15,140 nucleotides of DNA. Source: a virus (Duplodnaviria; Heunggongvirae; Uroviricota; Caudoviricetes). Shown here one piece after another: positions 13,128-15,140 of the stretch. Under the pieces are notes generated by a model that saw only the letters and a program-made list of their open reading frames with translations, was not told the origin of the DNA and did not search any database. Where the stretch lies: the IMG/VR virus record IMGVR_UViG_2698536369_000028, positions 1-15,140 of that record; one strand, 5' to 3'. The stretch's first letter is position 1; each line of letters begins with the position of its first letter. A program made the translations under genes and the position numbers.

Positions 13128-15055
13128 TGTCTGATGTTTTTTCTTTGGCTCCAGAAGGTCAGGCATGGATTGACGACAAAACAGTTGCCAACCCAGCAAG
13201 GCCAGAAGACTACGATCCGACTCCATTCCAGGGTTCAGGTACTGCACTTTTGAGCGGCGTGGCGGAGGGGGCTCTCGGTCTCGCGCAGTCTGCCGTCGGA
13301 TTCAGCAAGCGCCTGATTAGCGATCCGGCATTTACCGCAGACGTGGCACCGACTGTTAATATTTTTCGGGAGATGTTCCCTGATGCTGACAAAACACTGA
13401 ATGATACATACGACACGATCGGAAAACAGTTACAGGATGCCCGCAGTTATGTGAAGCCTGATGCAGGCAGCCAGGGAATGGCGGCAGAGGTATTAAATGA
13501 GCTTGGTAAATTTGTTCCTGCAATCGGAACAACTATGTTTGGCGGTCCCCTCATCGGCGCTGCTACAGCCTTCAGTTCTACGTATGAGCAGTCCTATCAG
13601 GATTTTAAAGGGAAGGGAGTAGACGAGGCTACGGCGCGTAACCTGGCAGCGCAGCAGAGCCTTTTCAATGCTGTGGGTATGGCCTTACCCGCTGCCGTCG
13701 GCACCACACTGGCAACGCGCATTGCCTCAGGCGTGGCAATCAACACCGGATTCGGTGGACTGAACCGTTACTCAGTAGGCGCAACACTGGAGGAAAAAGG
13801 CTACACGGAGATGGCAAAACAGTACCGGGTATTTGACGGTCAGGCGATGTTAGTCGATGCCGTTTTAGGCGGGGTCTTTGGTGGCGTTCATCACCTGACT
13901 ACCCATAATAACCATGATGGTACAGAGTCGAACATTTCTGCAGAAGAAATAAAATCAACTTTTGGTGAACATTATCAGCAATCTCCTGATGGTAACATTG
14001 AGTCAATGGTTCGTGATTTATCTGATTCAGGAGTAATAGAACTTATTAATGAACCAGCAATAAAAAATAGTGATGGAGAAATACTTCTGAATAAAGGTCA
14101 TGTGACAGTAGCTTCCGGAAAAGAACCAATAATAAGAATAAATATTAATGGATTAAAAGACCATGAAGAACTGTTAGAAACCCTTCATCACGAGGCGCTT
14201 CATCTTGAGCAGCGCCATTACCCTGACTGGAAGGCCAGAAAGCTAGCTAATGCTGTACTTAAATCTGCAAACAAGCATTCTGACTATCCTGAATTTGCAT
14301 ATGGGATGTCACAATATTATGAATATAAGAAAAGGGGTGAGTACCCTGAAACATATCCTGAGTGGTTGTACGCTGAAGAAGTTGCCGCACATGCAGTAAA
14401 TCCATCTCTAAAGACAAGCGTTTCATCATGGGAAAAAATTATTTCAGGTTTTAAAGCCTATATATTCAGATACAGTGGTATTCAGGTTGGAACCGTTACA
14501 CCTGAGCAGTTACGGTTACTCGTAAGTATGCGTCTTCGTAATATGAAACTGGAAGCCGCAGTAGAAAAAGTTTTTGGTATCCGGGCGAGGGAAAGAATAA
14601 AACCAAGCGATATTGATGCAGCCCACATTTTGAATGAGGGGCTTCATTACGATATTGAATCGTCACCAGTGCTTCACACCAGCAATGAGAGCATCAACAG
14701 CCATGTTGACGCCATGGATGAAGCATACAGGCAACTTAATGATGGTCAGCCTGTAAATGTTGGGGGGATGGCGCGAGGGCTTGATGGTCCATTGCGATCA
14801 GATATATCTGATACTTACCAAGAGCAATACCATGAAATACAAAAGGTTTTTGAAGAAAATGGTGTCAGATATGAAACATCATCAGAGCCAATTAGTGAAT
14901 CGCCTGTCCCTCGTGCTGAAAGTGCTTTCTCATCGGCTGGTGAACACAGAGGGGACGTCAGCGTTGATCCAGATACAGGACAGGTTCTCTCATCCAACAG
15001 CTATGACCTTATGGCTGCCAGGGACATGAACCGCCCCGGGAATCCTGGAGACTAA
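13127..15055 (+). CDS. Large uncharacterised protein (642 aa as read): Gly/Ala-rich hydrophobic N-terminal half, AT-rich C-terminal half with HEALH motif; native 3' end interrupted by IS insertion
   Basis: Seen: ATG overlaps upstream stop (TAATG); abrupt drop in GC by eye near 13900; HEALH encoded at 14189-14203; the final codons (...MNRPGNPGD, from about 15027) are encoded by IS terminal sequence. The annotated stop is therefore not native and the gene may be a truncated pseudogene. Confidence 0.75.
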   Translation: MSDVFSLAPEGQAWIDDKTVANPARPEDYDPTPFQGSGTALLSGVAEGALGLAQSAVGFSKRLISDPAFTADVAPTVNIFREMFPDADKTLNDTYDTIGKQLQDARSYVKPDAGSQGMAAEVLNELGKFVPAIGTTMFGGPLIGAATAFSSTYEQSYQDFKGKGVDEATARNLAAQQSLFNAVGMALPAAVGTTLATRIASGVAINTGFGGLNRYSVGATLEEKGYTEMAKQYRVFDGQAMLVDAVLGGVFGGVHHLTTHNNHDGTESNISAEEIKSTFGEHYQQSPDGNIESMVRDLSDSGVIELINEPAIKNSDGEILLNKGHVTVASGKEPIIRININGLKDHEELLETLHHEALHLEQRHYPDWKARKLANAVLKSANKHSDYPEFAYGMSQYYEYKKRGEYPETYPEWLYAEEVAAHAVNPSLKTSVSSWEKIISGFKAYIFRYSGIQVGTVTPEQLRLLVSMRLRNMKLEAAVEKVFGIRARERIKPSDIDAAHILNEGLHYDIESSPVLHTSNESINSHVDAMDEAYRQLNDGQPVNVGGMARGLDGPLRSDISDTYQEQYHEIQKVFEENGVRYETSSEPISESPVPRAESAFSSAGEHRGDVSVDPDTGQVLSSNSYDLMAARDMNRPGNPGD

Positions 15056-15140
15056 ACTCCCTGAGAAAGAGGTAAACAGAATGACTAAAAATACTCGTTT
15101 TTCCCCCGAAGTCCGTCAGAGGGCGATTCGTATGGTTCTG
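15027..15140 (+). mobile_element. Left end of an IS3-family insertion sequence (IS629/IS1203-like), continuing beyond the window
   Basis: Seen: terminal sequence TGAACCGCCCCGGGAATCCTGGAGAC... followed by an RBS and an OrfA start. Established/recollection: OrfA N-terminus MTKNTRFSPEVRQRA.RMVL matches IS629-group transposase OrfA; exact IS boundary approximate. Confidence 0.8.
15081..15140 (+). CDS. IS3-family transposase OrfA, 5' partial (first 20 codons in window)
   Basis: Seen: AGAGG RBS then ATG; translation MTKNTRFSPEVRQRAIRMVL. Confidence 0.85.
   Translation, partial: MTKNTRFSPEVRQRAIRMVL

What the first reader, a model, noticed from the sequence alone, without database searches (positions are those of the whole stretch)
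15027..15140. IS3-family insertion interrupts the 3' end of the HExxH-domain gene
The last in-frame codons of the 642-aa ORF (MNRPGNPGD and the stop) read into what looks like the IS terminal inverted repeat, so the native C-terminus is missing or displaced to the far side of the IS. This could inactivate a toxic or costly cargo gene, or simply mark the island as an insertion hotspot.
Basis: partly seen in the sequence, partly recalled or inferred. Interest (0 to 1): 0.5.

Follow-up and report, generated by a model that had tools for sequence, protein, structure and literature searches.

The report
IS629-like insertion truncates ejection-protein gene
A very common E. coli jumping gene (an IS629-type insertion sequence) has landed 52 codons before the end of a phage-derived gene and cut off its conserved tail; the event is real but is an ordinary mutation seen in a single isolate.

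Summary
Confirmed and ordinary. Window 15027-15140 is identical (114/114) to the left end of a 1310-bp IS3-family element. That element has 25-bp terminal inverted repeats and orfA/orfB with a programmed frameshift. It is 95.3-95.7% identical to annotated IS629 and occurs in 3606 of 5426 complete E. coli genomes.

IS-free alleles of the interrupted gene occur in 37 complete E. coli genomes. They match the window only up to base 15028 and encode 686 aa. The window ORF is identical for residues 1-634, then reads NRPGNPGD-stop from the IS end. The 52 lost residues are conserved in homologues from at least six genera, and none ends at M634.

The window stops one base short of the end of its draft contig (CYBM01000025.1). 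The far IS end, the target duplication (predicted ACA) and the gene's 3' remnant could therefore not be seen.

The gene is not a recognisable metalloprotease. It is an orthologue of podophage epsilon15 gp16, a virion injection-apparatus protein, carrying a lineage-specific HExxH insert with no detectable homologues. It lies in a ~20-kb PICI-like island that carries only the gp15-gp16-gp17 module. That module is intact in 36 of 37 genomes and gp16-like is under purifying selection, so neither a "toxic cargo" nor a "hotspot" reading has support.

The parts
13127..15028 (+). Native part (codons 1-634) of the interrupted gene, an orthologue of phage epsilon15 gp16. The native length is 686 aa.
   Evidence: 634/634 residues are identical to the 686-aa IS-free allele of E. 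coli TUM9803. Homology to 37 complete genomes ends at 15028. tblastn gives 82% identity to epsilon15 gp16 over the N- and C-terminal parts.
14189..14203 (+). HExxH motif (H355-E-A-L-H359) inside the lineage-specific central insert (about aa 258-491, nt 13898-14599).
   Evidence: Read directly from the sequence. The block TLHHEALHLEQR is invariant in the 690-aa relative P0003. The insert is absent from the 521-aa forms and replaced by other sequence in the 629-636-aa forms. It has no Pfam hit and no homologue among 1.84 billion representatives.
15024..15026 (.). Predicted 3-bp target-site duplication (ACA), left copy. This is inferred, not observed.
   Evidence: An annotated IS629 copy carries a 3-bp duplication. 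The IS starts at 15027, so the three bases before it would be duplicated. The right copy lies beyond the contig end.
15027..15051 (+). Left terminal inverted repeat (IRL, 25 bp) of the IS629-type element. Its first two bases (TG) also match the uninterrupted target.
   Evidence: Inverted-repeat pair TGAACCGCCCCGGGAATCCTGGAGA / TCTCCAGGAAACCCGGGGCGGTTCA in the full copy L004 2501-2525 / 3786-3810. Alignment A3.
15029..15055 (+). IS-encoded tail of the fusion ORF: NRPGNPGD plus the TAA stop.
   Evidence: Translation of the window. The native sequence at this point is AVANPELT....
15081..15140 (+). First 20 codons of IS orfA (MTKNTRFSPEVRQRAIRMVL), in the same orientation as the interrupted gene.
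   Evidence: Identical to the start of the 108-aa OrfA of the full copy (L004 2555-2881, HTH_Tnp_1). RefSeq annotates that copy as 'IS3 family transposase, programmed frameshift'.
10596..13127 (+). Upstream gene of the same operon, an epsilon15 gp15 orthologue (843 aa; putative lytic transglycosylase / virion protein). Its stop overlaps the start of the interrupted gene.
   Evidence: PHROG 992/1044/7182 hits. About 80% amino-acid identity to epsilon15 gp15.

Best explanation
An IS629-type insertion sequence (IS3 family, 1310 bp when complete) transposed into the 3' end of an epsilon15-gp16-like gene, between the A of codon 634 and the following bases. It lies in the same orientation as the gene.

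Shown: the ORF keeps residues 1-634, gains eight IS-encoded residues and stops inside the IS left end. It loses 52 C-terminal residues that are conserved across genera.

Inferred: this is a simple insertion by the copy-out/paste-in route of IS3-family elements, leaving a 3-bp duplication (ACA). On the far side the 3' remnant would be followed by the gp17-like gene, whose start normally overlaps the stop of the interrupted gene.

Also inferred: the truncation, together with the separation of the downstream gene from its operon, impairs or abolishes the function of the three-gene virion-protein module of this PICI-like island. The event looks like a sporadic, strain-specific loss-of-function mutation and not a regulated or selected feature.
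For: IS identity:
- 114/114 identity to the IS left end, found in 3606 of 5426 complete E. coli genomes.
- The full copy is 1310 bp with 25-bp inverted repeats. OrfA is HTH_Tnp_1, OrfB is rve/DDE, and a programmed frameshift is annotated.
- 95.3-95.7% identity to elements annotated as IS629, one of them with a 3-bp target duplication.

Breakpoint:
- IS-free alleles in 37 complete genomes align only to 15028.
- The 686-aa allele is identical over residues 1-634. The three-way alignment shows the switch at the TG.

Lost segment matters:
- It is conserved in all full-length homologues aligned, and none ends at M634.

The gene is normally functional:
- The module is uninterrupted in 36 of 37 genomes.
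- dN/dS is 0.02-0.12 for gp16-like and 0.10-0.15 for gp17-like.

Strain-specific and real:
- The truncated 642-aa protein is on record on only two contigs, one NCBI draft and one Logan assembly. Both break inside the IS, as expected for a repeat.
Against: Only the first 114 bases of the IS are in the window, and the contig ends there. A full-length IS, the right end, the target duplication and the 3' remnant were therefore not observed. A search for the predicted far-side junction in species-representative genomes found nothing, as expected, since that collection does not hold this isolate.

Loss of function is inferred from conservation only. The role of the C-terminal 52 residues is unknown. 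The downstream gene has its own GAGGA Shine-Dalgarno-like sequence, so it might still be expressed by read-through from the IS.
Confidence: 0.8

Rival explanations
1. IS-mediated deletion or rearrangement. The IS end seen here is a recombination or adjacent-deletion junction, so the gene's 3' end and possibly the gp17-like gene and the rest of the island are absent or relocated, not sitting just beyond the IS.
For: The far side is unobserved because the contig ends in the IS. The element is multicopy in most E. coli (median 3, up to 50 places per genome), which gives substrates for IS-IS recombination. Related islands show other IS-associated lesions: ISVsa5 inside gp17-like in TUM9803, and IS1 directly after gp17-like with loss of the island's end in STEC388.
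Against: Nothing here argues directly against it. Simple insertion is the commoner outcome, and the breakpoint coincides exactly with the IS terminus, which both models predict.
Confidence: 0.15
2. Selected inactivation. The insertion was favoured because the HExxH-bearing protein, or the whole module, is toxic or costly to the host.
For: None directly. Other lesions exist in this gene family: a frameshifted 640-aa variant (P0002, 8 member sequences) and ISVsa5 in gp17-like.
Against: The module is intact in 36 of 37 complete genomes, with strong purifying selection. The insertion removes only the last 52 residues and leaves the HExxH insert whole. No toxin, defence or peptidase family is matched.
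Confidence: 0.05
3. Assembly artefact: a chimeric contig end joining the gene to an unrelated IS read.
For: The junction lies 115 bases from a contig end in a short-read draft.
Against: Two separate assemblies, the NCBI draft and the Logan assembly of ERR137786, give the same 642-aa fusion ORF. The switch falls exactly at base 1 of the IS inverted repeat, which a random chimera would not do.
Confidence: 0.02
4. Natural short C-terminus: the ORF ends here in its native form and the IS merely abuts it.
For: None.
Against: IS-free alleles continue for 52 codons. All full-length homologues aligned share the longer conserved end.
Confidence: 0.01

Closest known systems
IS629 (IS3 family; isoforms known as IS1203 and IS3411, naming from my own knowledge of ISfinder)
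   Same: 1310 bp, TG...CA 25-bp imperfect terminal repeats, orfA (HTH) and orfB (DDE/rve) joined by a programmed -1 frameshift, and a 3-bp target duplication in annotated copies. The full copy that shares the window's exact end is 95.3-95.7% identical to annotated IS629.
   Different: The window's 114 bases differ from the IS629 copy of Stx2 phage Stx2_499 at 8 positions (106/114). It is therefore a variant or isoform at the edge of the 95% convention. Only the left end is in the window.
Salmonella podophage epsilon15 (Uetakevirus) gp16, with its neighbours gp15 and gp17
   Same: Same gene order gp15-gp16-gp17 with overlapping stop and start codons. About 80%, 82-89% (N- and C-terminal parts) and 89% amino-acid identity respectively. 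[quoted passage not shown]
   Different: The central third is replaced by a roughly 230-aa HExxH-containing insert, found only in the 686- and 690-aa forms. Here the gene lies in an island with no capsid, portal, terminase, gp11-gp14 or tailspike genes.
Gram-negative phage-inducible chromosomal islands (GN-PICIs) carrying phage late genes
   Same: Integrase, AlpA-type HTH, Bro-N and Rha regulators, a DUF927-type primase, about 20 kb, flanked by direct repeats, found at three or more chromosomal sites with two unrelated integrases. [quoted passage not shown]
   Different: The late-gene cargo here is a podovirus gp15-gp17 virion-protein operon, not a capsid gene. Induction, a helper phage and packaging were not tested.

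Membership tests
IS3 family / IS629 | Terminal inverted repeats starting 5'-TG and ending CA-3' | tested here: met
   Window 15027-15051 is identical to the IRL of a full copy whose IRR pairs over 25 nt at 92%. The IRR of this particular copy was not seen.
IS3 family / IS629 | About 1.2-1.5 kb, with two consecutive overlapping ORFs (orfA HTH, orfB DDE/rve) expressed by a programmed -1 frameshift | tested here: inconclusive
   Met in the reference copy that shares the identical 114-bp end (L004: 1310 bp, OrfA HTH_Tnp_1, OrfB rve, annotated frameshift). The window itself holds only the first 20 codons of orfA.
IS3 family / IS629 | 3-bp (3-4 bp) target-site duplication flanking the element | not testable with these tools
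   The contig ends inside the IS. An annotated IS629 copy has a 3-bp duplication. The predicted far-side junction is absent from the species-representative genomes.
IS3 family / IS629 | At least 95% nucleotide identity to the IS629 reference (isoform convention, from my knowledge of ISfinder practice) | tested here: inconclusive
   The full copy with the identical end is 95.3-95.7% identical to annotated IS629. The 114 bases in the window are 106/114 (93%) identical to the Stx2_499 copy.
epsilon15 gp16-like virion protein | Sequence homology to gp16 over the conserved N- and C-terminal regions | tested here: met
   tblastn gives 82% identity over 66% of the query and 89% over the N-terminal 244 aa. 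PHROG 1145 hit, E = 1.7e-136.
epsilon15 gp16-like virion protein | Synteny gp15-gp16-gp17 with overlapping stop and start codons | tested here: met
   Window 10596-13127 / 13127-...; L005 11470-14001 / 14001-16061 / 16061-18817; epsilon15 L006 6473-9001 / 9001-10905 / 10905-13661.
epsilon15 gp16-like virion protein | Incorporation into virions and a role in DNA injection | not testable with these tools
   Known only for the phage, from the literature. The island copy is untested.
Zincin (HExxH) metallopeptidase | HExxH motif | tested here: met
   H355-EAL-H359, conserved in P0003.
Zincin (HExxH) metallopeptidase | Homology or fold similarity to a known metallopeptidase family | tested here: not met
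   No Pfam hit at E <= 0.1. No PDB sequence hit in this region. No homologue among 1.84 billion representatives. The AF2 model has pLDDT 52 and Foldseek against the PDB gives no match with E <= 0.001. The structural test is weak because the model is poor.
Gram-negative PICI | int - alpA - (bro) - primase gene layout, 10-20 kb, integrated with flanking repeats | tested here: met
   Pfam and RefSeq annotations. 24-nt direct repeats 19.9 kb apart in ExPEC XM. Definition taken from PMC10111431.
Gram-negative PICI | Helper-phage-dependent induction and packaging | not testable with these tools
   Needs experiments. Co-occurrence with Uetakevirus-like prophages was not resolved.

The most novel reading that the evidence does not exclude
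The interrupted gene belongs to an undescribed kind of PICI-like satellite. This satellite has captured only the gp15-gp16-gp17(-gp18) virion/ejection-protein operon of an epsilon15/phiV10-type podophage. The left breakpoint of the capture lies about 68 nt upstream of gp15, in the 3' end of gp14.

The captured gp16 carries an orphan HExxH cassette. The satellite would load its own ejection proteins, possibly including an injected effector, into helper-built capsids, or would use them to sabotage the helper. In this reading the IS insertion is a natural knockout of that function.
Probability: 0.25. Interest if true: 0.6.

Novelty: already known. Interest (0 to 1): 0.12.

Why it matters
The finding as stated matters little. 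It is one more IS629-type insertion, in a single isolate, of a kind routinely seen in E. coli. Its practical value is for annotation: the 642-aa ORF should be flagged as a disrupted gene, and the contig break is explained by the repeat.

The context is more useful. The 'HExxH gene' is really an epsilon15 gp16-type virion protein with a swappable central cassette. It sits in a mobile, PICI-like island that keeps a three-gene podophage ejection-protein operon under purifying selection. If that island proves to be a satellite that supplies its own ejection proteins, this isolate would be a ready-made natural mutant.

Tried and rejected
1. Far side of the IS. The exact-protein look-up located the source contig, but it ends 115 bases into the IS. 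A pattern search for the predicted right junction in species-representative genomes found nothing. Proteins from other loci cannot be used for contig look-ups, so the downstream contig of the same assembly could not be fetched.

2. Identity of the HExxH insert. All of the following gave nothing usable, so the fold remains unassigned:
- Pfam and PADLOC.
- PDB sequences: one weak, irrelevant hit to a peptidase C39-like protein at residues 158-286, E = 0.0099.
- An exhaustive phmmer search of 1.84 billion representatives: only a 74-aa fragment of the protein itself.
- AlphaFold2 on a two-sequence alignment: pLDDT 52.
- Foldseek against the PDB: best E = 0.86.

3. Similarity between the target and the IS inverted repeat. 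A gapped global score was uninformative, since 32% of positions score as well. A shared 7-mer (AATCCTG) at a similar offset occurs at 0.5% of positions, but this test was post hoc, so it is recorded only as a note.

4. Co-occurrence of the island with a Uetakevirus-like helper prophage. The 'second place per genome' count (17 of 37) turned out to be an unreliable proxy. Other ProQ/PerC islands also produce second places, and one island genome has the prophage without a second module hit.

5. Primary epsilon15 papers (Guichard 2013, Kropinski 2007, Chang 2010) are not held in the library. The roles of gp15-17 rest on secondary citations.

6. The 'natural C-terminus' and 'not an IS end' readings were rejected.

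Full report
**The observation**

The + strand ORF at 13127-15055 encodes 642 aa. From base 15027 the sequence reads TGAACCGCCCCGGGAATCCTGGAGACTAAACTCCC..., followed by ATG ACT AAA AAT ACT CGT... at 15081.

Megablast of 15027-15140 against 5426 complete E. coli genomes gave 23,272 places in 3606 genomes. Many are at 100% identity and all are annotated 'IS3 family transposase'.

A complete copy with an identical end (E. coli W2-5, L004 2501-3810) has these features:
- It is 1310 bp long, with 25-nt terminal inverted repeats that are 92% complementary.
- It has a 108-aa OrfA (HTH_Tnp_1) and a 296-aa OrfB (rve, DDE type).
- RefSeq annotates a programmed frameshift.
- It is 95.3-95.7% identical over its full length to elements annotated as IS629 in Stx phages. 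One of those carries an annotated 3-bp target duplication.

The window's 114 bases are 106/114 identical to that IS629 copy. The stretch is therefore the left end of an IS629-type element: the inverted repeat, the leader and the first 20 codons of orfA. It lies in the same orientation as the interrupted gene.

**The interruption**

Thirty-seven complete E. coli genomes carry the gene at 98.9-99.9% identity. In every one the alignment stops at query base 1902, which is window base 15028.

In TUM9803 and STEC388 the gene is 2061 nt, or 686 aa. The window ORF is identical to the TUM9803 protein for residues 1-634. After that the native protein continues AVANPELTIAHPETGNPTKLSDLLAELDEQIKTVQNESKVYSVAAACFLRNP, whereas the window reads NRPGNPGD-stop.

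A three-way alignment shows the switch exactly at the TG that begins the IS. Those two bases happen to be shared with the target.

With the 3-bp duplication typical of IS629, the duplicated triplet would be ACA (15024-15026). This is an inference.

**Is the lost segment dispensable?**

It does not look dispensable. A search of 5.8 billion proteins returned 420 relatives. The 14-sequence alignment included one further disrupted allele (P0002). All full-length homologues in it, from E. coli, Enterobacter, Salmonella, Klebsiella, Citrobacter and Lelliottia, share the C-terminal segment. The end ...ESKVYSVAAACFLRNP is nearly invariant, and none stops at the junction residue.

**How real and how widespread is the insertion?**

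The exact 642-aa fusion protein is on record on only two contigs:
- CYBM01000025.1 of draft assembly GCA_001284545.1, 66,651 bp. The window ends one base short of its end.
- A 5.6-kb Logan contig from run ERR137786, which ends at the fusion ORF's stop codon, 29 bases into the IS.

Two assemblies give the same junction, and both break inside a multicopy repeat. That is the expected behaviour for a true insertion in short-read data.

No complete E. coli genome has an IS at this site. The far end of the IS, the duplication and the 3' remnant could not be recovered. The predicted right-junction pattern is absent from the species-representative genome collection, which does not include this isolate.

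**What the gene is**

Pfam finds nothing in it or its neighbours. PHROGs links the three overlapping large genes to phage virion proteins.

tblastn against phage genomes gives Salmonella podophage epsilon15 as the best match. The window's 843-aa gene, the 686-aa gene and the following 918-aa gene correspond to epsilon15 gp15 (putative lytic transglycosylase), gp16 and gp17. They have the same order and the same stop/start overlaps, at roughly 80%, 82-89% (conserved parts) and 89% amino-acid identity.

The literature places gp15, gp16 and gp17 in the epsilon15 DNA packaging/injection apparatus. [quoted passage not shown] The primary papers were not available.

The gp16 family has three parts:
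- a conserved Gly/Ala-rich N-terminal region (about residues 1-257);
- a variable centre, absent in the 521-aa forms, a different insert in the 629-636-aa forms, and the HExxH-bearing insert in the 686/690-aa forms;
- a conserved C-terminal region of about 200 residues.

The HExxH block is conserved between the two insert-bearing forms. Otherwise the insert is an orphan:
- no Pfam hit;
- no homologue among 1.84 billion representative proteins;
- a low-confidence AlphaFold2 model, pLDDT 52;
- no structural match.

Calling it a metalloprotease is therefore unproven.

**The surrounding element**

The window and its relatives form an island of about 20 kb. It encodes a tyrosine integrase, an AlpA-type HTH, Rha, AntA or T5orf172, Bro-N, an Icd-like protein, DUF4222, a DUF927 primase-type protein, SSB, ProQ/FinO, a frameshifted PerC and then gp15-gp17(-gp18)-like genes. 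It has no capsid, portal, terminase, gp11-gp14 or tailspike genes.

In ExPEC XM it lies between yicC and dinD, bounded by 24-nt direct repeats 19.9 kb apart. Other copies lie next to tRNA-Gly/actS or near yqeG, with an integrase only 28% identical.

The ProQ-PerC-gp15-like junction is present in 44 complete genomes. Homology to true prophages begins about 68 nt upstream of the gp15-like start.

By contrast, the 521-aa and 634-aa gp16 forms in E. coli lie in complete epsilon15-like prophage virion modules. So do the relatives in Erwinia, Pseudocitrobacter, Scandinavium and Advenella.

The layout fits the published description of Gram-negative PICIs, which may carry phage late genes (PMC10111431). 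I found no paper describing satellites with ejection-protein cargo.

**Is the module decaying or a hotspot?**

No. It is uninterrupted in 36 of the 37 complete genomes with this allele; the exception has ISVsa5 in the gp17-like gene. Pairwise dN/dS among island alleles is 0.02-0.12 for gp16-like, 0.10-0.15 for gp17-like and 0.15-0.28 for gp15-like.

The IS has therefore hit a gene that is normally maintained. There is no evidence that it is toxic or costly, and no defence-system model matches.

**Mechanism and consequences**

Shown: an IS629-type end is fused to codon 634, and a conserved 52-residue tail is lost.

From established knowledge of the IS3 family: transposition goes through a circular copy-out intermediate and leaves a 3-bp duplication.

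Inferred: the truncated protein is defective. The downstream gp17-like gene normally starts at the TAATG overlap. Here it is separated from its operon by 1.3 kb, although it keeps a GAGGA Shine-Dalgarno-like sequence.

The main rival is that this IS end marks a deletion or rearrangement and not a simple insertion. That cannot be excluded without the far side. I give it about 0.15.

**Verdict**

The observation and its core interpretation are correct. The event is an ordinary insertion of a known element, seen in a single isolate. The interest of the finding itself is low. The island that hosts it is the more promising lead.

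Noticed in passing
window 10596-15028, continuing in L005 11470-18817 and L007 12470-20155: The three large overlapping 'hypothetical' genes are orthologues of podophage epsilon15 gp15, gp16 and gp17 (virion/injection-apparatus proteins). Here they sit in an island with no capsid, portal, terminase or tail genes. The module is under purifying selection and intact in 36 of 37 complete E. coli genomes.
   Followed up: partly
window 1-10500; L007 1783-21719: The host element looks like a Gram-negative PICI-type satellite: int, AlpA, Rha, Bro-N, Icd-like, DUF927 primase, SSB, ProQ, PerC. It is 19.9 kb between 24-nt direct repeats (CGTGTACATAGAGGTGTACATAAT). It occurs at three or more chromosomal sites with two unrelated integrases (28% identity), and its junction is present in 44 of 5426 complete E. 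coli genomes. Helper phage and mobility are untested.
   Followed up: partly
window 13898-14599 (aa 258-491 of the gene): The gp16 family has a swappable central cassette between conserved N- and C-terminal regions: none in the 521-aa forms, another insert in the 629-636-aa forms, and an orphan HExxH insert in the 686/690-aa forms. The HExxH insert has no detectable homologue in 1.84 billion representative proteins.
   Followed up: partly
window 15027-15054 compared with L001 7900-7927: The uninterrupted target just downstream of the insertion point (TGGCTGTTGCCAATCCTGAGCTGACTA) shares TG, the 7-mer AATCCTG and GACTA with the IS left repeat (TGAACCGCCCCGGGAATCCTGGAGACTA) at similar offsets. 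A 7-mer run like this occurs at about 0.5% of positions. This may reflect the preference for IR-like targets known for some IS3-family elements, or it may be chance; the test was post hoc.
   Followed up: partly
L007 12402-12470 (corresponds to roughly window 10528-10596): Nucleotide homology between the island and true Uetakevirus-like prophages starts about 68 nt upstream of the gp15-like start, inside what is the 3' end of the T7-gp14-family gene in the prophages. This suggests the island captured a fragment of a phage late operon without its promoter.
   Followed up: no
window 3392-4168: This slot holds a T5orf172/MUG113-domain protein with a weak hit to PADLOC candidate PDC-S57 (E = 9e-8). 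Sister islands (L005, L007) carry an AntA/AntB antirepressor gene at the same position, so it is a variable slot in the regulatory region.
   Followed up: no
window about 9936-10160 (L005 10809-11034, L007 11809-12034, L001 2810-3035): The PerC-family regulator gene is annotated as frameshifted in all three annotated sister islands examined. It is either a shared ancestral lesion or a conserved recoding or annotation quirk.
   Followed up: no
P0002 (640 aa; alignment columns 570-710): A second disrupted allele of the same gene exists in Logan assemblies (8 member sequences). It is a frameshift after ...QPVNVGG (about residue 547). It could be a real pseudogene or an assembly error.
   Followed up: no
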